Origin: an uncultured Gammaproteobacteria bacterium
GTDB taxonomy: Bacteria; Patescibacteriota; Patescibacteriia; UBA1558; S5-K13
DNA length: 64,000 bases
Direction: 5' to 3'
NCBI GenBank assembly: GCA_964640635.1
Contig: CAZXFD010000004.1
Coordinates: 9,262-73,261, forward strand
The translations under genes were made by a program, and so were the position numbers. Position 1 is the stretch's first letter, and each line of letters opens with the position of its first letter. Below the pieces are notes generated by a model that made no database searches, was not told the DNA's origin, and saw only the letters and a program-made list of their open reading frames with translations. Shown here one piece after another: positions 5,948 through 56,424 of the stretch.

Positions 5948-7115
5948 AATCATAGAAAATATTGGAGATATAAAAAACAAGAAAATTCTTTTGAAATTGG
6001 ATTTGAATTTATCAATAGACAAGAATGGAAAGATAGATCAAGATTCGACACTGAGAATAGAGTCTGTTATAAAAACTATAAAATTTTTATTAGCCAAAGG
6101 CGGGAAGATTGTCATAATATCTTATTTGGGTAGACCTAGTGGATTTGATAAAAAATATAAAATGGATGAGGTTGCAAAAATTCTCTCAGGATATGTTGGT
6201 AAAAAAATTAAAAAACTAAATAGTGCATTACCCAAGGATATAGAAAAAGATCTAGCACAAATGAAATCAAAAGATATTATAATGCTTGAAAACATAAGAT
6301 TTTATAGCGAAGAAGAAAAAAATGATATTGTATTTGCAAAAAATCTTGCAAAACTATTTGATGTTTATGTAAATGATTCTTTTTCAAATGCGCATCGTGC
6401 TCATATGTCATGTTCTGCTATAATGCAGTTTTTGCCTAGTTATGCAGGTTTTAGACTAGAAGAAGAGGTGTCTAGCTTGACTAGTGCAATGAAAAAGGGA
6501 AATGGTAAATTGCTTATATTGGGCGGTGCAAAAGTTGATACAAAGTTAGAATTGATAAAAAAATTAAGAAATTCTTATGATTATATATTACTAGGAGGAG
6601 TTCTAGCTAATACATTTTTAGCATCAAGAAAAATTAATATAGGAAAATCTATTTATGATGATAAGTTTTTAAAGCTTGCCAAAAAAATTGATTCAAAAAA
6701 GATTATTCTTCCAGTCGATGTTATAACTGCAAAAAAAATTGATTCTAGTAAAACACAGATTAAGGATATTGCAGACGTAGATAGTGATGATATGATTTTG
6801 GATATTGGACCAAAGAGTGTAGAGTTTTTTGGAAAATATATAAAAAAATCAAAAATGATTTTGTGGAATGGCCCTATGGGATATTTTGAAAATAAAAAGT
6901 TTCAAAAGGGAACGATAGATTTATTGTTGTCTATGAAGAGATATAAGAGTATTGTTTATACGGGTGGTGGAGAAACGGTTACTATGATAAAAAAATTAAA
7001 ATTAGAAAAAGTATTTAAGTTTATTTCAACTGGTGGTGGAGCGATGTTGGAGTTTTTATCAGGATTAAAAATGCCGGCTATAGAAGCGTTGAAGAAAAAT
7101 AAAAATAATAATTAA
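5940..7115 (+). CDS. pgk: Phosphoglycerate kinase.
   Basis: The N-terminal KILLKLDLN...GGKIVIISYLGRP matches PGK, as does the C-terminal STGGGAMLEFL motif. Length is 391 aa. Confidence 0.85.
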   Translation: MYKIIENIGDIKNKKILLKLDLNLSIDKNGKIDQDSTLRIESVIKTIKFLLAKGGKIVIISYLGRPSGFDKKYKMDEVAKILSGYVGKKIKKLNSALPKDIEKDLAQMKSKDIIMLENIRFYSEEEKNDIVFAKNLAKLFDVYVNDSFSNAHRAHMSCSAIMQFLPSYAGFRLEEEVSSLTSAMKKGNGKLLILGGAKVDTKLELIKKLRNSYDYILLGGVLANTFLASRKINIGKSIYDDKFLKLAKKIDSKKIILPVDVITAKKIDSSKTQIKDIADVDSDDMILDIGPKSVEFFGKYIKKSKMILWNGPMGYFENKKFQKGTIDLLLSMKRYKSIVYTGGGETVTMIKKLKLEKVFKFISTGGGAMLEFLSGLKMPAIEALKKNKNNN

Positions 7116-7124
7116 AATAATAAT

Positions 7125-8384
7125 ATGAAAATAGATAAAATCATTGCAAGGGAAATATTAGATTCTCGTGGGAATCCCACTATTAGCACGACTATATTTT
7201 TGGATAATGGAAAATATTATTTTGCATCAGTTCCCTCAGGTGCATCAACCGGATCATCGGAAGCATATGAACTTAGAGATAGGGATATGAATAGATATGG
7301 TGGAATGGGTGTTTTAAAAGCTGTAAATAGTGTTAATAAAGATATTAATAATCTTTTAATAGGGAAAGATATAGAAAATATTATTGAGTTAGATAAGCAA
7401 ATGATAGAGCTTGACGGTAGTGAGAATAAAATGAATCTAGGAGCAAATGCAATATTATCAGTATCTCTTGCTTTAAATAGGGCATGTGCAGATTATATGA
7501 ATATGCCACTTTATAAATTTATAAATGAGTATTATAAATTTATAAAAAAACCACAATTACCAACTCCACTTGTTAATGTTATAAATGGTGGTAAACATGC
7601 TGATAGTAATTTAGATTTTCAAGAATTTTGGATAGTTCCAGATAAAGTAAGTCAGAGTTTCAAAGAAAAACTGCGAGCATGCTCAGAAGTATTCCATGCC
7701 CTTGGAGAAATTTTGTCTTCCAATGATCTTGATACAGATGTTGGTAATGAAGGTGGCTATTCTCCAGATTTTGAGAAAACAGAAAATGCTTGGGATTTCA
7801 TACAAGAAGCAATAAAAAAATCAGACTATGAAAATAAATTTTATCTTGGACTTGATGCAGGTTCTTCAACTTTTTTTAATAATAATTCTGGTAAATATTT
7901 TATAAAACTTGAAAATTTAGAACTCACAAAAGTAGAATTGTTGAATTATTATATGGATTGGATAAAAAAATATCCTATAAAATATTTTGAAGATCCATTT
8001 GCAGAAGAAGATTGGAATTCATGGAAAGATTTTTACAATATTTTAAGTAAAATTCAAGGAGACGCTGTTTTGATTGGAGATGATTTGTTTACAACTAATG
8101 TAAATAGATTACAGCGTGGAGTAGAACTTCAATGTGCAAATGCGATACTTATAAAACCAAATCAAATAGGAACGATTAGTGAAACAACAAATTGTATAAA
8201 ATTAGCTCAAGAAAATAATTTTAAAGTGGCCGTTTCTCATAGAAGTGGAGAAACCTGCGATGATTTTATTGCGGATTTATCAGTTGCTGTATCTAGCGAT
8301 TATATAAAAACAGGATCAATATCAAGAGGAGAAAGAATCTCTAAGTACAATAGATTATTGGCGATAGAAGAAGAGTTACTTTAA
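7125..8384 (+). CDS. eno: Enolase (phosphopyruvate hydratase).
   Basis: The N-terminal IIAREILDSRGNPTI is the classic enolase signature. Length is 419 aa. Confidence 0.9.
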   Translation: MKIDKIIAREILDSRGNPTISTTIFLDNGKYYFASVPSGASTGSSEAYELRDRDMNRYGGMGVLKAVNSVNKDINNLLIGKDIENIIELDKQMIELDGSENKMNLGANAILSVSLALNRACADYMNMPLYKFINEYYKFIKKPQLPTPLVNVINGGKHADSNLDFQEFWIVPDKVSQSFKEKLRACSEVFHALGEILSSNDLDTDVGNEGGYSPDFEKTENAWDFIQEAIKKSDYENKFYLGLDAGSSTFFNNNSGKYFIKLENLELTKVELLNYYMDWIKKYPIKYFEDPFAEEDWNSWKDFYNILSKIQGDAVLIGDDLFTTNVNRLQRGVELQCANAILIKPNQIGTISETTNCIKLAQENNFKVAVSHRSGETCDDFIADLSVAVSSDYIKTGSISRGERISKYNRLLAIEEELL

Positions 8385-20230: not shown

Positions 20231-20689
20231 TTATTTGTTTTCAAATATGAAACTCATTTCGCCGCTTATGACCGTTCTTTTATTTACAAACGTGAAAAGA
20301 ATAAAATCTTGCAGTCTTTTTATTTCTTTGAAATTTGTTAATTGAAACGTCATCTGAAATATCTCTTCGATTCTAGTCCTTTTGTGGAAGGTCGTAGCAA
20401 CACTTCTGTAATACAGATCATAATTAGTCGCAGCCCCTCTAAATGCAGACAATGAAATATCTATATTAATGAGTTTTTTCTCAATAATATGATCAGCAAG
20501 TAAATAACATGCTTGACTTAAACAGCGCAAATAATTTTCTGCCGTTACATATGGTACGGGTTTTGTCGTATAAGATTTACCCCCAACTTTACAGGTTACA
20601 TGAATTGATAATTTTTCATCATCAAAGGAATGACTCTGTATAAATATACCCTCAGGAGGATATATTTCTGTTAATATGTTCTGTATCAT
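20231..20689 (-). CDS. Hypothetical protein (possibly hotdog-fold).
   Basis: The 152-aa ORF has good coding periodicity and its own terminator, but no motif was recognised. Confidence 0.35.
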   Translation of the reverse strand: MIQNILTEIYPPEGIFIQSHSFDDEKLSIHVTCKVGGKSYTTKPVPYVTAENYLRCLSQACYLLADHIIEKKLINIDISLSAFRGAATNYDLYYRSVATTFHKRTRIEEIFQMTFQLTNFKEIKRLQDFILFTFVNKRTVISGEMSFIFENK

Positions 20690-20822
20690 TATTCCTCCAA
20701 GTAATTTTTTTATATCTTAGTATCAAAATAAGAATTTGTCAACTCTTTAAATTATTATAAAAATTGAGTATAATTATATTAATAATATGCTTTAATTTAG
20801 CTATTTTTACTTATAAAGAAAT

Positions 20823-37734: not shown

Positions 37735-39288
37735 TTAAAGTGTATTTAAAAGTTTTAATGTTTTTGGTCCAATATAACCGACTTGTTCTAGACCATTTGC
37801 TTTTTGGAAAGATTTTATAGCGGCTTCTGTATAGTTACCAAAGTATCCAGTGATTTTTGGGTATTTAAAATATCCAAAATCTTTTAAGGTTTTCTGTAAA
37901 GTACTAACTTCTTTGTTGTTTTTAAGATCCCTATTAGTTTTTCTTAGTTTTCTTGTAAAATTTAAATTTAATTTTTGGATAGCTTTATTTAGCTTAGTTG
38001 TTGGTTCATCAGAAGTTATTTTTTCTCCCAAAACTTGGGGTATGATCTTTTCTGCTAATACTTGAGGTATTATAGGGTTTACTGGTGGTATAGATCCTCC
38101 AATATAACCACCACTACTAGGTCTATTATTTACAACTACTGTTCTTATTTTTGGTATGGCCGATTTTCCAGATAGATCTGTTGCGGTATATTCTAAAGTA
38201 TATGTTCCAGCTACAGATGTATTGACAACACCATTCATATAAATAGTTCTATTTGTGTCTATGTCGTCACTTACTATAGCACCCTCATCAGAATAACCAT
38301 CGCCAACATATAATGATATTGTTGCTTCACCATTTAGTGTTATAACGGGAATTTCTTTGTCTGTATTTATTATAGTTAATTTTATATATGTTTTGGAAGA
38401 TTCGCCATGTTTATCTGATACATATAAAGATATTTCACAGTTTTCATTTTGTCCCACCTCCTCAGTCTTGAAATCTGCTATACTATCTTTTTGTCCAATT
38501 AATTCTATATATTTACAAGTTGATTCCCAATGATACTGTATTTCTTTTTGATTTGGTGTTATGCTCTCATGTCCGTCTAATTGAAATTTTTCATTTTCTG
38601 CTATTTCTTCTTGAGTTTTGTAGATTTTTGCAAGGTATTTTGTAGAAACATCTATAGAATCAGTTGATTTTTTTTGAACAATAACTTTTCTTTCAATACT
38701 TGTTGTGTTATTAGATGCATCTGTGGCGGTATATGTTAGTATGTATTCTCCAGGTATTAGAGTGTTAATATCACCACTTCTTTCAAAGTTAATATTTTCT
38801 TCATTGTCTGTCGCTGTAATGTCATTATCATTATATGTTTGGCCAACAAATAACAATAATGGGTTAGCGCCAGATATTGTTATAACTGGGGGCGTGGTAT
38901 CTATATTTTTTATTATAAAGTTTATGGTCTCAAGTTTAGATGAATTTTTTCCATCTGTTACACTTAAAGATATTTCACATTTTTCATCTTGTTTTACTTC
39001 TCCTATGGAAATTTTAGCTGTAGCATCGGATGTTGTAATGACAATTTCGCATGTAGTATTCCAATCGTATCGTATTTCTTTTTGATTTGGAACTGTACTT
39101 TTTGAGCCATCTAATTTGAACTCGGTGTTTTCGTTTACTTCACTTGAAATATCGCTGGTTATCACCGCGATGGGTTCTGATATTGCTACTAAGTCTGAAT
39201 CAGGTTTTTCTGCTTTTGTAAAGCTAAGAAATAACACCAAAATTGGTATTAAAACTAGTAGCATTACTAGAGTTGTTATTTTTTTCAT
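37735..39288 (-). CDS. Secreted modular surface protein: a signal peptide, two PKD-like/Ig-like module pairs, and a C-terminal peptidoglycan-binding domain (PG_binding_1).
   Basis: The modules are duplicated internally (ENTEFKLDGSKSTVPNQKEIRYDWNTTCE...ISLSVTDG vs ENEKFQLDGHESITPNQKEIQYHWESTCK...ISLYVSDK; PPVITISGANP..YTATD vs IPVITLNGEAT..YTATD). The C-terminus (LQKTLKDFGYF...AIKSFQKANGLEQVGYIGPKTLKLL) matches PG_binding_1. Confidence 0.6.
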   Translation of the reverse strand: MKKITTLVMLLVLIPILVLFLSFTKAEKPDSDLVAISEPIAVITSDISSEVNENTEFKLDGSKSTVPNQKEIRYDWNTTCEIVITTSDATAKISIGEVKQDEKCEISLSVTDGKNSSKLETINFIIKNIDTTPPVITISGANPLLLFVGQTYNDNDITATDNEENINFERSGDINTLIPGEYILTYTATDASNNTTSIERKVIVQKKSTDSIDVSTKYLAKIYKTQEEIAENEKFQLDGHESITPNQKEIQYHWESTCKYIELIGQKDSIADFKTEEVGQNENCEISLYVSDKHGESSKTYIKLTIINTDKEIPVITLNGEATISLYVGDGYSDEGAIVSDDIDTNRTIYMNGVVNTSVAGTYTLEYTATDLSGKSAIPKIRTVVVNNRPSSGGYIGGSIPPVNPIIPQVLAEKIIPQVLGEKITSDEPTTKLNKAIQKLNLNFTRKLRKTNRDLKNNKEVSTLQKTLKDFGYFKYPKITGYFGNYTEAAIKSFQKANGLEQVGYIGPKTLKLLNTL

Positions 39289-39438
39289 ATTTTTTATGGT
39301 TTACACCCTTAAAGGGTTCTTATTATTTATATTATGTAAAATACCTCAATCCCCAATTATTATTAATAATGGGTATTGAATTGAAATTTATTATTATTAT
39401 ATTATTATACTAAATATAAAAAATTTTGTCAAATGTAT

Positions 39439-43291: not shown

Positions 43292-43552
43292 CTATTCTCT
43301 TGTTTCCATTGGTTTTGCTTCATTTACCTTGATTGTTCTTCCAGCAAATTCTTTGCCATCAAACATTTCAATAGCTTTTTGAGCACCTTCTTCTGTTTCC
43401 ATTTCAACAAAACCAAATCCTTTTGATCTGTTTGTCATTTTGTCAATAATAATTTTGACAAATGTTACATTTCCTGCTTCAGAAAATGCTGTTTGTAGAT
43501 CCTCTTCTGTGGAACTATAAGGGATTCCACCGATGTATAGTCTTTTTTCCAT
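43292..43552 (-). CDS. RRM-type RNA-binding protein.
   Basis: RNP-2 is LYIGGIP and RNP-1 is KGFGFVEM. Length is 86 aa. Confidence 0.85.
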   Translation of the reverse strand: MEKRLYIGGIPYSSTEEDLQTAFSEAGNVTFVKIIIDKMTNRSKGFGFVEMETEEGAQKAIEMFDGKEFAGRTIKVNEAKPMETRE

Positions 43553-51531: not shown

Positions 51532-51944
51532 TATATTAAGCCTTCTATTTTTAATATATATTTTATTTTTTCCTCTGTAATATTTGTATAAACAGATTGG
51601 TTGATGCTCATAATAGGGCCTTTGTCACACATTCCAATACACTGACACGTTTCAAGTGAGACAAGACTGTTTGATTCCCCTATTTTTATATTCAATAGAT
51701 TGGAAATAAGATTAAGTAATTTTTCATTTTTTTTGGAGTGACATGTAGGGCTTTGACAGAGTTTGATAATTTTTTTTGAAGGTTTTTCTAAATTAAAATT
51801 TGCATAAAAAGAAACAGTGTCATAAATTTCTGCTGGGGATTTTTGAAATTCTTTTGCAAGCATATTTATGTCAGATTCTTTTATGTAAGAGGTTCTGTTT
51901 TGAATTTCTAGTAGTCTCTCTAGTAGTAATTTTTTATTTTCCAT
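51531..51944 (-). CDS. NuoE-like thioredoxin-fold [2Fe-2S] subunit of the hydrogenase (HydC/HndA-like).
   Basis: The Cys pattern is CQSPTCHS...CQCIGMCDKGP. The start overlaps the hydB stop. Confidence 0.7.
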   Translation of the reverse strand: MENKKLLLERLLEIQNRTSYIKESDINMLAKEFQKSPAEIYDTVSFYANFNLEKPSKKIIKLCQSPTCHSKKNEKLLNLISNLLNIKIGESNSLVSLETCQCIGMCDKGPIMSINQSVYTNITEEKIKYILKIEGLI

Positions 51945-52028
51945 TTTTATAATAAGTAATTGAATATATAATAATATATTATAACATTTTTTGTATTATT
52001 TGTTTAGCTTTTATTTAAAAAAAATAAA

Positions 52029-52051
52029 AAGAGCAGATAATTTGTCTGCTC
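52029..52051 (-). terminator. Rho-independent terminator for the 106-aa gene, upstream of the hydrogenase operon.
   Basis: An 8-bp stem agagcaga/tctgctct; a T-run follows on the minus strand. Confidence 0.55.
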
Positions 52052-52066
52052 TCTTGTAAGTCCTTT

Positions 52067-52387
52067 TTAACAGTGTCCTATAAAGCACATTTTGTATGCT
52101 TTTGGAGTACTTATTTTGATTGTTTTTCCCATTACAATAGATGGATCATCGTAATTCTCAATAAATGCAGAGATATTATTTCCAAGATCTTGATCTAGCA
52201 ATGTGTTAGAGTCAATTTTTACAGATATGGCAAGTCCTAGTCTTTGAATAGAAATCTTCTCGGGTAGAATCTGTAAGGTTGTTGTTAGATGTTCTTTGAG
52301 TTTTTGAACTAACATTTTAAAAAATTCATTTTCGTCATCTTGATTGGGTATGCATTTTGTTGGGAAGTTGATTTTTATATCTGCCAT
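52067..52387 (-). CDS. Hypothetical 106-aa protein ending in CFIGHC.
   Basis: It has good coding signal and its own terminator, and sits next to the hydrogenase operon. No motif was recognised. Confidence 0.4.
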   Translation of the reverse strand: MADIKINFPTKCIPNQDDENEFFKMLVQKLKEHLTTTLQILPEKISIQRLGLAISVKIDSNTLLDQDLGNNISAFIENYDDPSIVMGKTIKISTPKAYKMCFIGHC

Positions 52388-52439
52388 GTATTCCTCCTAA
52401 GGAACTCTATGTTCTAAAGATTAATAGTTTTTCATTATT

Positions 52440-52484
52440 TGTCAAGTTTATAGTGTTGACATATATAAAATAATATAGTATCAT
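52440..52484 (+). promoter_or_regulatory. Sigma70-type promoter (-35 TTGACA, 17-bp spacer, -10 TATCAT) overlapped by the palindrome TGTCAA-N10-TTGACA.
   Basis: TTGACA is at 52456-52461 and TATCAT at 52479-52484. The inverted-repeat half tgtcaa is at 52440-52445. Confidence 0.55.
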
Positions 52485-52531
52485 TAATTATTCATTTGTG
52501 TGATTAAATTTAAAAAAAATAGGGAGGAATC

Positions 52532-52780
52532 ATGATTATATTAGAAAGAGTGGCTAGCGGATTTAGGTATGTTTTTGTATTAATTAGTATGTGTATGACA
52601 AAACATATGCGGGCCTTAGTTGTTTTGGGGTTGATTATGTTACAAGGGAGTTTTTTAATAGTTGTTGGCAAAAAATCAGCTAAACGTGAAGCTTGTGAAA
52701 ATAATCATAGCAGGACAAGGATTAGGAGTGATTATAAGAATAGGCATCGTTATAATCCTGGTTGGCACTACTTTTTTTAA
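52532..52780 (+). CDS. 82-aa small membrane protein (two TM helices) with an Arg/His-rich tail.
   Basis: The SD AGGGAGG is 6 nt upstream. The hydrophobic helices are YVFVLISMCM and ALVVLGLIMLQGSFLIVVG. The promoter above drives it. Confidence 0.45.
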   Translation: MIILERVASGFRYVFVLISMCMTKHMRALVVLGLIMLQGSFLIVVGKKSAKREACENNHSRTRIRSDYKNRHRYNPGWHYFF

Positions 52781-52900
52781 TTCATTGTGGATACGGTTTG
52801 TCGCTTTGATAGGGGATATGTTATTTTTCTCGTAGATAACACATTTGTGTTTTCTGAAATTATTTTTAGAAAAAATTTGAACTTAAACAGGGAGGAATAA

Positions 52901-53038
52901 ATGAGTGAGCTCACGGAAGCAATTGAAAAATTGGCAAAGATTATAGTTAATGATCCAACAATTGCAGAAGATGATCTTAACCAGATTTTGATTGATCTTG
53001 TAAAAAAAGTAAGAGAGATCAAGCAATCCCAATCGTAA
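52901..53038 (+). CDS. 45-aa acidic helical peptide (MSELTEAIEKLAKIIVNDPTIAEDDLNQILIDLVKKVREIKQSQS). It is absent from the ORF track because it is shorter than 60 aa.
   Basis: An identical AGGGAGGAAT SD sits upstream. A hairpin gatcacaagagtgatc follows at the stop, then the terminator at 53065-53102. Confidence 0.45.
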   Translation: MSELTEAIEKLAKIIVNDPTIAEDDLNQILIDLVKKVREIKQSQS

Positions 53039-53064
53039 GATCACAAGAGTGATCGAGTTATGTA

Positions 53065-53102
53065 GTGGTGATACGCATTGAGTATTGCCACTTTTTATTT
53101 TT
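53065..53102 (+). terminator. Rho-independent terminator of the small-ORF unit.
   Basis: gtggtgatac gcattga gtattgccac (10 bp including 2 G-U pairs) followed by tttttattttt. Confidence 0.6.
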
Positions 53103-53124
53103 ATAAAAGAACATCCATTTAATT

Positions 53125-53234
53125 CTCGTCGACACTCGGATTAGTTTAGGCACCGCCTCGCGGTCTCGCTTGTTAGCTCGACATCGCTCTGGCGTTCTCA
53201 TCTCGACGCAACGCAAGCAGTTGCGTTGCTCCCT
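53125..53234. ncRNA. GC-rich (roughly 55-60%) structured island, a candidate small RNA of unknown class.
   Basis: Stable hairpins gcaacgcaa-gcag-ttgcgttgc (53208-53229) and accgc-ctc-gcggt (53152-53164), plus three CTCGAC repeats, in an otherwise under-30% GC context. It lies between a terminator and tRNA-Ser. Confidence 0.3.
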
Positions 53235-53300
53235 AATATATATTTTATATAATTTTCATAGCAAATAAAAAATATCCATTTTTAGTAGATATTCTTAGTG

Positions 53301-53390
53301 TGGCGGAGAGGGCGAGATTCGAACTCGCGAACCACTTGCATGGTTAACAGTTTTCAAGACTGTCGCATTCAACCACTCTGCCACCTCTCC
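53301..53390 (-). tRNA. tRNA-Ser (anticodon TGA), 90 nt, long variable arm, CCA encoded.
   Basis: Acceptor GGAGAGG/CCTCTCC, discriminator G, anticodon stem ACAGT/ACTGT with loop CTTGAAA, T-loop GTTCGAATC. Confidence 0.85.
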
Positions 53391-53514
53391 GTATTATGTG
53401 GAATAATAGGAAAATATTATCATATTTTTTTGAATGTGTCTATATTTGTATTATTTTATAATAATAAAATTTTTTGATCTTGTAATTAAGACATAAAGAC
53501 AAATATTTCCATGA

Positions 53515-54141
53515 TTATATTATTTTAAACTTTTTCTTTTTCTTTTTGTGTAAAATCAGAACAATTATTGCAATAAAAATAATTATTGACCCAATGGAAA
53601 ATTCCTTGTAATAGGTTTTAAACATTTCTTGATTTGCACCAAAGAAATATCCTAGTAACGCAAGGATTATATTCCAGATTAGTGATCCAAGAGTTGTATA
53701 TAACATAAAGCTCCAAATATTCATTTTTGCAAGTCCCGCAGGAATTGATATGAGCTGTCTTATTTCAAAAACAAGACGACCAATAAATGTTGCCAATTTG
53801 TCATATTTGAGGAAGTACTCCTCGGATTTTTTTATTTTGTGTTCGTTTATAAGAAGTAATTTTGCGATTTTTGTGTTTGCAAGTTTGTAGATGATTGCAC
53901 GACCTAGAGTAAGGGCGAGAAAATAATTTATTAAAGCCCCTAGTAGACTTCCTATTACACCACATATAACTACGAGATAAATATTTAATACTCCTTGTTG
54001 AGCAAGATAAGCGGCTGGTGGGATTACAAGTTCTGATGGAAACGGAATAAAAGAACTCTCTATCGTCATAAGAGCTATAATGCTAGGATAGTTTAGTTGG
54101 GAGAATATTGATAAGAAAAAATGAGTTATTGAAGTGAGCAT
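53515..54141 (-). CDS. DedA-family membrane protein.
   Basis: FIPFPSELVIPPAAYLAQQG is the DedA/SNARE-associated motif. Confidence 0.75.
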   Translation of the reverse strand: MLTSITHFFLSIFSQLNYPSIIALMTIESSFIPFPSELVIPPAAYLAQQGVLNIYLVVICGVIGSLLGALINYFLALTLGRAIIYKLANTKIAKLLLINEHKIKKSEEYFLKYDKLATFIGRLVFEIRQLISIPAGLAKMNIWSFMLYTTLGSLIWNIILALLGYFFGANQEMFKTYYKEFSIGSIIIFIAIIVLILHKKKKKKFKII

Positions 54142-55307: not shown

Positions 55308-56252
55308 CTAATCTGCTGAATATATTTTTTGAAAACTGGGAATGAGGAAAAACTCCTCTATAAAACCAATGTGTTCCAACTCCACTTTAAAAGTGAAAAG
55401 AGAAATTGTATGCTCGCTTAAACTTTCACTTAATTCGCAGATTACTACGTTTTCTTCTTTTTCATAATAAGAATTAAACAATAGTAATGCCTGTAAAAAT
55501 TGATAGTGAAAGTGTGTATTTTTCACCTGCATAAAAAAAGAAACTCCGCATTCTGCCGTAAACAACATTTGATTGCTATTTGCAATTTCAATACTCATTT
55601 CTTTGTAAGTCATTTTCTTGAAATTTGTATCATTGAATTTTTCTGAGCCTTTGATTTTGACATGATAAATCCAAAATGGTTTCTTCGGAGTTACTATTTT
55701 ATTGCAAATCATTTCTGGATTTTTACAATATTTAGATATGACCGTTTTGCCATAATGTTTTACATAAAATGCATCACTTTCTTCGGGATCATCCCCCTTG
55801 TAATAATCCTTATTATAGACGTCAAATGACTCACGGAATTGTTTTGCAAAGTATGATGTCTTTTTTATCGTGAATGTGGATTTGTTGCGCTCAGTCAATA
55901 TCTCCATCAACATTTCCATTTGAAGCTCTGCATTTATCATTTCTTTTGGAATGACGGGAAATAAAAGTCTTGCAAGTACTTTTTTTTCTATAGATGTATC
56001 AACAAGATCGTTGATTGCGATTTCCGAACTTTCTTTCAAAGAGTTCATTATTGATGTTTTTAAATCCTCGGATATCTTGTCTTTATTGATTAAAAACATC
56101 AATCCCCTTTCAACTTTTTTGAGCCTACCATCTACATATTCTTCCAGATATTCCCTGTCTAAATAAATGATAGTATTTTCGACTTCTAATGGCTTATTGG
56201 GCTTCTTTTTTAGCCCTAATAATCCGAAAATGTTGTTTATCAGTGCTTTCAT
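55308..56252 (-). CDS. Hypothetical protein (314 aa).
   Basis: It has coding periodicity and its own terminator (agcaga/tctgct hairpin at 55296-55317). No motif was recognised. Confidence 0.4.
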   Translation of the reverse strand: MKALINNIFGLLGLKKKPNKPLEVENTIIYLDREYLEEYVDGRLKKVERGLMFLINKDKISEDLKTSIMNSLKESSEIAINDLVDTSIEKKVLARLLFPVIPKEMINAELQMEMLMEILTERNKSTFTIKKTSYFAKQFRESFDVYNKDYYKGDDPEESDAFYVKHYGKTVISKYCKNPEMICNKIVTPKKPFWIYHVKIKGSEKFNDTNFKKMTYKEMSIEIANSNQMLFTAECGVSFFMQVKNTHFHYQFLQALLLFNSYYEKEENVVICELSESLSEHTISLFTFKVELEHIGFIEEFFLIPSFQKIYSAD

Positions 56253-56424
56253 TATTCCTCCAGTATTTTAATGATATATAGTATCATATTATATATGAGA
56301 TGTCAATTAAGTTGTGTAGATGATATTATGCTAAATACTAAATACAAAGTACGAATCTTCTTTTTTTGCTTTTTTTGTTTTATTTAGCTATTATTTATAT
56401 ATAATAAGTTTATTTTAAAATTTT

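What the first reader, a model, noticed from the sequence alone, without database searches (positions are those of the whole stretch)
52438..53102. Two-small-protein locus under a near-consensus sigma70 promoter with an operator-like palindrome.
The intergenic space beside the hydrogenase operon contains the best promoter in the window (TTGACA, 17 bp, TATCAT). The palindrome TGTCAA-N10-TTGACA covers its -35 element and is a candidate repressor operator. Two small ORFs follow, and both carry an identical AGGGAGGAAT Shine-Dalgarno. The first is an 82-aa, two-TM membrane protein with an Arg/His-rich tail. The second is a 45-aa acidic amphipathic peptide, invisible to the ORF track because it is under 60 aa. 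A hairpin follows it and a strong terminator ends the unit. I recognise no known family. The pairing of a membrane protein with a small acidic peptide is reminiscent of holin/antiholin, bacteriocin/immunity or toxin/antitoxin-like pairs, but this is inference only.
Basis: partly seen in the sequence, partly recalled or inferred. Interest (0 to 1): 0.6.

Follow-up and report, generated by a model that had tools for sequence, protein, structure and literature searches.

The report
Orphan small-gene locus with back-to-back promoters
The promoter, ribosome-binding sites, two small ORFs and terminator are all there, but only the 45-aa gene has a homologue in the one related genome found; the 82-aa membrane ORF is absent there and the "operator palindrome" is best read as two promoters facing apart, so this is an ordinary orphan locus of unknown function.

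Summary
Three details of the interpretation change.

- **Palindrome.** TGTCAA-N10-TTGACA is two perfect -35 hexamers on opposite strands. One serves the ORF1/ORF2 unit and the other the divergent 106-aa gene. Both promoters are kept in the only relative found (Ca. Komeilibacteria S5_K13), where the spacer is N9. In another strain an IS element sits exactly between the two hexamers.
- **The pair.** The relative has the same promoter, 5'UTR, SD and terminator. There they drive a 98-aa homologue of ORF2 directly, with no ORF1.
- **ORF1.** It lies in a 368-nt segment specific to this genome, bounded by a duplicated 5'UTR and SD. That duplication explains the identical AGGGAGGAAT. ORF1 has atypical codon usage and no homologue anywhere.

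ORF2 is a real gene: normal codon usage and pN well below pS. Its family has only two members among 1.84 billion representative proteins. No support was found for holin, bacteriocin or toxin-antitoxin readings. Function is unknown, and interest is low.

The parts
52067..52387 (-). Divergent 106-aa gene. It is the conserved partner of the ORF2-family gene. Predicted ferredoxin-like beta-alpha-beta-beta-alpha-beta fold. C12, H33, C101, H105 and C106 are invariant.
   Evidence: Codon-usage score is 0.322 per codon, in the range of real genes. It is 58% identical to L006 2276-2596, with dN/dS 0.63. AF2 model: pLDDT 72, pTM 0.69. Fold search gave only nonspecific matches. A terminator-like site lies at 52055-52027(-).
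52418..52445 (-). Promoter of the 106-aa gene: -35 TTGACA (52445-52440, the left half of the 'palindrome'), 16 nt, -10 TAATCT (52423-52418).
   Evidence: It is part of a composite promoter-leader-GGAGGAAT match. The composite is conserved in L006, L009, L010 and L011. Sequence read.
52456..52484 (+). Promoter of the ORF1/ORF2 unit: -35 TTGACA, 17 nt, -10 TATCAT.
   Evidence: Conserved in L006 as TTGACA-17-TATATT. The intergenic region is 85.8% identical between the two genomes, against 71-77% at third codon positions of flanking genes.
52493..52530 (+). 5'UTR copy 1 with SD1 (AGGGAGGAAT, 52521-52530). This copy is orthologous to the relative's leader.
   Evidence: Alignment to the L006 leader scores 30, shuffle p = 0.006.
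52532..52780 (+). ORF1, 82 aa. Genome-specific small ORF with one strong hydrophobic helix (28-46), one weak one, and a basic Arg/His tail.
   Evidence: The frame is open with p = 0.0012. Codon usage is 0.019 per codon, below the 5th percentile of real genes at 0.106. It is absent from L006. Its only database match is itself. The segment has no other copy in the window or the fetched loci. Nothing in viral contigs.
52841..52898 (+). 5'UTR copy 2 with SD2 (AGGGAGGAAT, 52889-52898). It is a diverged duplicate of copy 1 and forms the right boundary of the 368-nt ORF1 segment.
   Evidence: Direct repeats D1-D3. Local alignment of copy 1 against the spacer has p = 0.005. The spacer fold is not significant, z = -1.26.
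52901..53038 (+). ORF2, 45 aa. Acidic, predicted all-helical. It is a one-repeat member of a two-member protein family.
   Evidence: Codon usage 0.376 per codon. Homologue P0003 (98 aa, internally repeated) lies at L006 1831-2127(-). pN 0.23-0.24 against pS 0.60-0.78. The family has only 2 members. AF2 model of P0003 is all-helical, pLDDT 72.
53039..53102 (+). Short hairpin (53039-53054), then an intrinsic terminator (stem 53064-53092 plus T-run).
   Evidence: z = -5.1. The terminator stem is homologous in L006, with an A-T to G-C change at the stem base read by eye from the ungapped sequences. The short hairpin is not conserved.

Best explanation
The conserved unit is a monocistronic cassette for a small protein restricted to this lineage. 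It runs from a strong sigma70-type promoter through a leader of about 38 nt and a GGAGGAAT Shine-Dalgarno to the ORF2-family gene and an intrinsic terminator. It stands back-to-back with an equivalent cassette for a 106-aa protein of ferredoxin-like fold.

The two perfect -35 hexamers lie on opposite strands, 10 bp apart, and together make the apparent palindrome.

In this genome a 368-nt segment carrying ORF1 lies between the native SD and the ORF2 start, bounded by a duplicated copy of the leader and SD. The promoter should therefore give a bicistronic RNA of about 610 nt, from roughly 52491 to 53100.

- **ORF2 (shown to be a gene; role inferred).** It is translated from its own SD copy into a soluble, acidic, helical protein. 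Its most likely role is a protein-binding or adaptor function, possibly with the co-conserved 106-aa neighbour.
- **ORF1 (inferred).** It is a young, genome-specific small membrane ORF that acquired the native SD. It is probably translatable, but nothing shows that it works together with ORF2.

Shown: the anatomy, the conservation pattern, the orphan status and the coding signature of ORF2. Inferred: transcription start and extent, translation of ORF1, and all biochemical function.
For: - Sequence elements.
- The relative L006 (Ca. Komeilibacteria S5_K13) aligns over window 52011-52530, which covers the 106-aa gene and the whole intergenic region, at 77.6%. It then continues directly into the 98-aa ORF2 homologue.
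- The terminator is homologous between the two genomes.
- The intergenic region is 85.8% identical, above third-position identity of flanking genes at 71-77%.
- Codon usage: ORF2 0.376, the 106-aa gene 0.322, ORF1 0.019 per codon; real genes average 0.34 with a 5th percentile near 0.1.
- ORF2 family pN 0.23-0.24 against pS 0.60-0.78.
- The composite TTGACA-N16/17-TANNNT-N15-45-GGAGGAAT occurs 4 times in the window against 0 expected. Two of the four are the divergent pair here.
- Both members of the pair are kept in L006 and L009, and on either side of an IS insertion in L010 and L011.
- The leader duplicate is significant at p = 0.005.
- Five independent assemblies carry the ORF1 segment with 0 mismatches, so it is not an assembly artefact.
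- ORF1 openness p = 0.0012.
Against: - Only one related species could be found. The direction of change is therefore not polarised: insertion here or deletion between the two SD copies in the relative. The 9-mer CATTTGTGT, shared by both window copies but absent from L006, only weakly favours a duplication in this lineage.
- There are no expression data, so the transcription start, bicistronic transcription and ORF1 translation are not shown.
- The -10 of the leftward promoter (TAATCT) is weak, 3 of 6.
- A repressor binding across both hexamers is not excluded.
- The ORF2 selection estimate rests on 20-40 aligned codons.
- The proposed role of ORF2 has no direct support. Fold search was uninformative. 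The only family signal is P0003 against phrog_13633, of unknown function (E = 1.5e-5), with no tblastn match in phage genomes.
Confidence: 0.7

Rival explanations
1. Functional two-gene module. ORF1 would be a membrane effector (holin-like, type I toxin-like or an immunity protein) and ORF2 its small acidic partner. The pair would be co-transcribed and repressed through the palindrome.
For: Both ORFs share one promoter and one terminator. ORF1 is small, has a hydrophobic helix and a basic tail of net charge +7, as many holins and membrane toxins do. The ORF1 frame is significantly open. ATG1 and ATG2 are in the same frame, and that frame has only one internal stop in 122 codons.
Against: - The pairing is not conserved: the only relative has ORF2 alone.
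- A 120-nt gap separates the two ORFs, and each has its own SD.
- No hit in PHROGs, PADLOC, Pfam or NCBIfam.
- No lysin, transporter, modification enzyme or phage gene lies nearby; the neighbours are hydrogenase genes, a VTT/DedA-domain protein, a short-chain dehydrogenase and tRNAs.
- ORF1 has atypical codon usage.
- The palindrome halves are naturally separable.
Confidence: 0.08
2. The palindrome is a true operator for a dimeric regulator that co-controls both divergent genes, in addition to containing the -35 hexamers.
For: The palindrome is rarer than chance, with 0.07 expected. The intergenic region is more conserved than third codon positions. A longer imperfect inverted repeat, 52420-52440 against 52468-52488, surrounds it.
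Against: - The half-site spacing differs between species, N10 against N9.
- An IS sits between the halves in L010 and L011, with both promoter cassettes intact.
- Both halves are fully accounted for as -35 elements of cassettes of the same design as two unpaired cassettes elsewhere in the window.
- No regulator gene with a recognisable DNA-binding domain lies in the locus.
Confidence: 0.15
3. ORF1 is not a gene. On this reading the 368-nt segment is a non-coding insertion or a long leader, and the open frame is fortuitous or the relic of a decayed gene.
For: - The codon-usage score of 0.019 per codon lies inside the distribution of spurious ORFs and below the 5th percentile of real genes.
- No homologue among 5.8 billion clusters.
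- Absent from the relative.
- The any-frame test for the longest open run is only marginal, p = 0.054.
- A single TAA interrupts an otherwise open 122-codon frame, which would fit a decaying ORF.
Against: - The open frame starts exactly at an ATG placed correctly behind a perfect SD, p = 0.0012. The stop count in that frame has p = 0.0003, or 0.006 after correcting for six frames.
- No Rfam family matches and the fold is not significant.
- The plus strand is only 9% C, which is unusual for a structured RNA.
Confidence: 0.35

Closest known systems
Back-to-back divergent sigma70 promoters sharing one intergenic region (a classical bacterial arrangement; from my own knowledge)
   Same: There are two -35/-10 pairs on opposite strands, and each is followed by a short leader, an SD and a gene. 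The -35 hexamers are adjacent and form an inverted repeat. The whole intergenic region is conserved.
   Different: No shared regulator is known or detectable here. Both -35 hexamers are perfect consensus.
Taxonomically restricted (orphan) small-protein genes
   Same: ORF2 and P0003 form a two-member family among 1.84 billion representative proteins. ORF1 is a singleton. No domain or fold assignment was possible.
   Different: ORF2 carries unusually canonical expression signals in a genome where 51 of 58 listed ORFs in the window (54 taken as genes plus 4 short ones, two of them ORF1 and ORF2) lack an SD core. Repeat number differs between the two members, 45 against 98 aa.
Class II / pinholin-type holins and type I membrane toxins
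   Same: The resemblance to ORF1 is only in size (82 aa), hydrophobic helix or helices, and a basic C-terminal tail.
   Different: There is no homology, no lysis cassette or phage context, no antisense-RNA signal and no conservation. This is a resemblance, not membership.
PHROG family phrog_13633 (phage protein of unknown function)
   Same: P0003 residues 9-34 match the profile at E = 1.5e-5, 26 bits.
   Different: ORF2 itself does not match at E <= 1. tblastn of P0003 finds nothing in 50,697 phage genomes, and nothing was found in viral contigs. The PHROG family has no annotated function.

Membership tests
Sigma70-type promoter | -35 TTGACA-like and -10 TATAAT-like hexamers 16-18 nt apart, upstream of a gene | tested here: met
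   11 of 12 matches at 17 nt. Conserved in the relative. tRNA genes in the window use similar sites. Promoter activity itself was not tested.
Back-to-back divergent promoters | A second promoter on the other strand whose -35 is the other palindrome half, correctly placed before the divergent gene and conserved | tested here: met
   TTGACA-16-TAATCT, leader, GGAGGAAT, ATG of the 106-aa gene. Kept in L006, L009, L010 and L011.
Repressor operator | Inverted half-sites at fixed spacing, needed together, with a cognate DNA-binding regulator | tested here: not met
   Spacing is N10 here and N9 in the relative. An IS lies between the halves in L010 and L011. No protein with a recognisable DNA-binding domain is in the locus. 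Binding cannot be tested with these tools.
Holin / antiholin | Homology to a holin family, or placement in a lysis cassette with an endolysin | tested here: not met
   No Pfam or PHROG hit for ORF1. No phage match. The neighbours are hydrogenase, tRNA and VTT/DedA-domain genes.
Holin / antiholin | Small membrane protein with at least one TM helix and a charged C-terminus | tested here: met
   Hydrophobic segment 28-46 with Kyte-Doolittle 2.4; tail net charge +7. This feature is generic.
Type II toxin-antitoxin | Two adjacent, closely spaced genes that travel together across genomes; match to a known toxin or antitoxin family | tested here: not met
   120-nt gap. ORF1 is absent from the relative. 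No Pfam or PADLOC hit.
Type I toxin-antitoxin | Small hydrophobic toxin ORF with an overlapping antisense RNA gene | tested here: inconclusive
   No convincing minus-strand promoter or terminator lies over ORF1 in the consensus scan, and no Rfam antitoxin RNA was found. Antisense transcription cannot be excluded without RNA data.
Bacteriocin / immunity pair | Precursor peptide with a leader, plus transporter or modification genes nearby | tested here: not met
   ORF2 has no Gly-Gly leader motif (read from the sequence) and no hydrophobic N-terminal signal (maximum Kyte-Doolittle 0.55). No ABC transporter or modification enzyme is among the neighbours.
IS / MITE insertion (for the ORF1 segment) | Terminal inverted repeats, a short target-site duplication, multiple copies | tested here: not met
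   No TIRs at the boundaries. The segment is single-copy in the window and loci. The flanking repeat is a diverged 38-57-nt leader duplicate, not a short TSD. By contrast the IS in L010 has TIRs, TG..CA ends and a TTTTT duplication.
Known non-coding RNA family | Match to an Rfam covariance model | tested here: not met
   Only tRNA-Ser matches in 51900-53600 at E <= 1. The gathering-threshold scan of the whole window finds 3 tRNAs only.

The most novel reading that the evidence does not exclude
In a CPR genome where most genes lack a Shine-Dalgarno, a small set of orphan genes carries one stereotyped expression cassette: perfect TTGACA, 16-17 nt, TAnnnT, a short leader, then GGAGGAAT. There are four such cassettes in this window. 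On this reading the locus shows how a new ORF is recruited. ORF1, a singleton membrane ORF, would have been captured behind a duplicated copy of such a cassette's 5'UTR and SD, making it a recent gene-birth or gene-capture event. The cassette set would then mark highly expressed, lineage-specific factors.
Probability: 0.25. Interest if true: 0.45.

Novelty: new member of a known kind. Interest (0 to 1): 0.22.

Why it matters
The direct importance is small. The work turns an apparently intriguing regulated toxin-like pair into one conserved orphan gene plus one genome-specific ORF. It also shows that a promoter-spanning palindrome can simply be two divergent -35 boxes.

Two points may be of modest use to people who study CPR/Patescibacteria:
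- A tiny, repeat-variable helical protein family seen in only two genomes, one of them labelled Ca. Komeilibacteria. It is always paired with a 106-aa Cys/His-bearing protein, lying beside the [FeFe]-hydrogenase operon here and one methyltransferase gene away from it in the relative.
- Canonical promoter-plus-SD cassettes mark orphan genes in a genome that otherwise has few SDs.

Tried and rejected
- **Homology for ORF1, ORF2 and P0003.** Pfam, NCBIfam, PHROGs, PADLOC and PDB sequence searches gave nothing usable. The one exception is P0003 against phrog_13633, of unknown function.
- **Large protein searches.** Word-index searches returned only self-hits and the one relative. The exhaustive HMMER profile search found two family members in total.
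- **Phage and viral collections.** Phage tblastn found no match. Viral-contig scans for ORF1 and for the ORF2 family found none.
- **More relatives.** The genome scan with the NuoE-like protein gave one close relative and one distant Bacteroidetes hit. Two metagenome scans gave nothing close.
- **ORF1 as a decayed or frameshifted paralogue of the ORF2-family gene after tandem duplication.** Rejected. The ORF1 body shows no protein or DNA similarity to ORF2 or to the 98-aa gene (p = 0.2-0.9), although the flanking leaders are still about 77% alike.
- **ORF1 segment as a MITE, or derived from the IS seen in L010.** Rejected. It has no TIRs, no second copy, and no similarity to the IS.
- **Region as a structured RNA or riboswitch.** Rejected. 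No Rfam hit, and the spacer fold has z = -1.26. An SD2-sequestering pairing appears in the minimum-energy fold but is not statistically supported.
- **Cluster look-up for source names.** None were given.

Full report

Yes. The sequence shows:
- TGTCAA at 52440-52445, 10 nt, then TTGACA at 52456-52461.
- 17 nt further on, TATCAT at 52479-52484.
- AGGGAGGAAT at 52521-52530, one base before the ATG of ORF1 (52532-52780, 82 aa).
- A second AGGGAGGAAT at 52889-52898, two bases before the ATG of ORF2 (52901-53038, 45 aa).

A 6-bp hairpin (53039-53054) follows, then an 11-bp stem with a T-run (53064-53102). That 70-nt stretch folds far better than shuffles, z = -5.1.

The palindrome pattern is expected 0.07 times in the window. 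The 10-mer AGGGAGGAAT occurs only at these two places.

Three small corrections apply:
- This is not the best promoter in the window. A perfect 12/12 site lies at 39432(-), and seven other sites also score 11/12.
- ORF1 has one convincing hydrophobic helix (28-46). The N-terminal one is weak and contains an Arg.
- The core GGAGGAAT is a recurrent SD in this genome.

**2. Are the ORFs genes?**

I built a codon-usage log-odds model from 54 long ORFs of the window that I took as genes. Real genes score 0.34 ± 0.10 per codon, and 45-82-codon pieces of real genes have a 5th percentile near 0.08-0.11. Spurious ORFs of 40-120 codons average -0.08.

| ORF | Score per codon |
|---|---|
| ORF2 | 0.376 |
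| Divergent 106-aa gene (52067-52387, -) | 0.322 |
| ORF1 | 0.019 |

ORF1 therefore looks atypical in composition. Its frame is nevertheless open for 81 codons after an ATG correctly placed behind a perfect SD (dinucleotide-shuffle p = 0.0012). The any-frame test for the longest open run is only marginal, p = 0.054.

ATG1 and ATG2 are 369 nt apart, so they are in the same frame. That frame has a single internal stop in 122 codons (p = 0.0003, or 0.006 corrected for six frames). The 39-codon stretch after the ORF1 stop is open only marginally, p = 0.055.

**3. Homology**

Neither peptide matches Pfam, NCBIfam, PADLOC or any PDB sequence. In the 5.8-billion-cluster protein collection each finds only itself.

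All contigs that carry them come from one series of sequencing runs and are identical to the window with 0 mismatches. The arrangement is therefore real and fixed in that population.

**4. The one informative relative**

A scan of species-representative genomes with the adjacent NuoE-like hydrogenase subunit returned Ca. Komeilibacteria bacterium S5_K13 (L006), 86% identical.

L006 has a homologue of the 106-aa gene, 58% identical. Divergent from it lies a 98-aa ORF that is homologous to ORF2 and internally repeated:
- ORF2 residues 1-28 match its residues 1-30 at 53%.
- ORF2 residues 8-37 match its second repeat at 43%.

DNA alignment shows how the two loci correspond:
- Window 52011-52530 (the 106-aa gene and the whole intergenic region up to the base before ORF1's ATG) matches L006 at 77.6%.
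- Window 52885-52946 (SD2 and the start of ORF2) matches the SD and start of the 98-aa gene.
- The terminator stem is homologous as well. Reading the ungapped sequences by eye, the pair at the stem base differs, A-T here and G-C in L006.

So promoter, leader, SD, ORF2-family gene and terminator form the conserved unit, and ORF1 is not part of it.

A profile of the two proteins found no third member, either in the word-index search or in an exhaustive HMMER scan of 1.84 billion representatives.

For the aligned codons, pN is 0.23-0.24 against pS 0.60-0.78. That is consistent with purifying selection, although the sample is small.

**5. What ORF1 sits in**

The two AGGGAGGAAT copies are 368 nt apart. 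The similarity extends upstream of both:

- 52493-52530: CATTTGTGTGATTAAATTTAAAAAAAATAGGGAGGAAT
- 52841-52898: CATTTGTGTTTTCTGAAATTATTTTTAGAAAAAATTTGAACTTAAACAGGGAGGAAT

The local alignment excluding the SD has p = 0.005. In other words, roughly the whole predicted 5'UTR is duplicated in front of ORF2. This explains the 'identical SD'.

Copy 1 is the orthologue of the relative's leader (p = 0.006). Copy 2 is not significantly similar to it (p = 0.6). The 9-mer CATTTGTGT is shared by both window copies but not by L006, which mildly favours a duplication or insertion in the window's lineage. With one relative the direction cannot be proven.

The segment has no terminal inverted repeats and no second copy in the window or in any fetched locus. 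It shows no similarity to the ORF2-family gene in any frame. I therefore reject a MITE/IS origin and a decayed-paralogue origin.

**6. The palindrome**

Read on the minus strand, TGTCAA is TTGACA. It is followed by 16 nt, TAATCT, a 20-nt leader, GGAGGAAT and the ATG of the 106-aa gene.

The composite pattern TTGACA-N16/17-TANNNT-N15-45-GGAGGAAT occurs four times in the window, against none in 100 shuffles. The four sites precede:
- the 152-aa gene (20231-20689, -);
- the 106-aa gene;
- ORF1;
- the 314-aa gene (55308-56252, -).

Both members of the divergent pair keep the full pattern in L006 and L009, although the spacer between the hexamers is 9 nt there instead of 10.

In two other assemblies of the relative (L010, L011), an IS is inserted exactly between TGTCAA and TTGACA. 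It has an rve transposase, inverted termini with TG..CA ends, and a TTTTT target duplication. Each hexamer stays with its own intact cassette.

The intergenic region is 85.8% identical between the two genomes, against 71-77% at third codon positions of flanking genes. It is therefore probably under constraint. Two full promoters and two leaders account for most of its length.

The most economical reading is two back-to-back promoters. An additional operator role is not excluded, and I give it about 0.15.

**7. What the products might do**

- *98-aa homologue of ORF2.* AlphaFold2 gives three helices, pLDDT 72. Foldseek against the PDB gives only nonspecific helical matches.
- *106-aa protein.* The model is a beta-alpha-beta-beta-alpha-beta (ferredoxin-like) fold, pLDDT 72 and pTM 0.69, again without a specific structural neighbour. 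It keeps C12, H33, C101, H105 and C106 in both species.
- *Family signal.* The only hit is P0003 against phrog_13633, of unknown function, at E = 1.5e-5. It has no counterpart in phage genomes or viral contigs.

My committed but weakly supported view has two parts:
- ORF2 is a soluble, acidic helical protein, expressed strongly. It probably acts through protein binding, possibly with its co-conserved 106-aa neighbour.
- ORF1 is a young ORF that may or may not be functional.

**8. Context**

The locus lies between a HydC/HydB/HydA-type [FeFe]-hydrogenase operon and tRNA-Ser(tga). In the relative a methyltransferase gene separates the 106-aa gene from the operon, and the region downstream of the terminator is different.

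The neighbourhood is therefore fluid, while the 106-aa/ORF2 pair persists. With two genomes, a functional link to the hydrogenase cannot be judged.

**9. Verdict**

This is a new member of a familiar kind: a lineage-restricted orphan small-protein gene with canonical expression signals, plus a genome-specific extra ORF. Interest is low.

Noticed in passing
window 20691-20742(-), 52390-52445(-), 52456-52530(+), 56254-56306(-): There are four copies of a stereotyped cassette: perfect TTGACA, 16-17 nt, TAnnnT, a short leader, then GGAGGAAT (0 expected by shuffling). All four precede proteins with no Pfam family (152 aa, 106 aa, ORF1, 314 aa). By contrast, 51 of the 58 ORFs listed in the window (54 taken as genes plus 4 short ones) have no SD core.
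   Followed up: partly
window 53120-53230: A GC-rich island (about 55% GC in a 30% GC genome, estimated by eye; the 200-nt composition windows peak at 0.42) lies between the ORF2 terminator and tRNA-Ser. It matches no Rfam family even at E <= 10, and its fold z-scores are only -1.1 and -1.8. The contigs found in three different sequencing runs (SRR10083293, SRR10083296, SRR10083310) all end exactly at 53186, inside it. A 25-mer from it is absent from viral contigs. Unexplained.
   Followed up: partly
L010 about 6545-7709 and L011 (Logan SRR30464888 / SRR30464899): In strains of the relative, an IS element is inserted exactly between the two -35 hexamers of the divergent promoters. It has an rve-domain transposase of 359 aa, termini of roughly GATGGGTACATAGGTAACAC with TG..CA ends, and a TTTTT target duplication.
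   Followed up: yes
window 52067-52387(-) and L006 2276-2596: The 106-aa protein has a predicted ferredoxin-like fold, an invariant C-terminal CFIGHC motif, and invariant Cys12 and His33. This could be a metal site. The gene lies next to the [FeFe]-hydrogenase operon here and one methyltransferase gene away from it in the relative. dN/dS is 0.63.
   Followed up: partly
window upstream of 2072(+), 50435(-), 54141(-), 60134(-); and of 23139(+) and 35560(-): Several genes without an SD have G-poor, C/A-rich leaders ending in AACCC(C)ATG. Two unrelated genes share the upstream string ACTTCAAAC[CT]TAACACTATG. This may be an alternative translation-initiation signal.
   Followed up: no
window 43441-43460: A second TGTCAA-N8-TTGACA palindrome lies inside the coding region of an RRM_1-domain gene (about 43292-43552, -). 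It is probably fortuitous.
   Followed up: no
window 39404-39432(-): A perfect 12/12 promoter consensus, TTGACA-17-TATAAT, lies upstream of the 517-aa gene at 37735-39288(-).
   Followed up: no
L006 2707-3504: The relative carries a 265-aa SAM-methyltransferase gene between the 106-aa gene and the hydrogenase operon. This gene is absent from the window.
   Followed up: no
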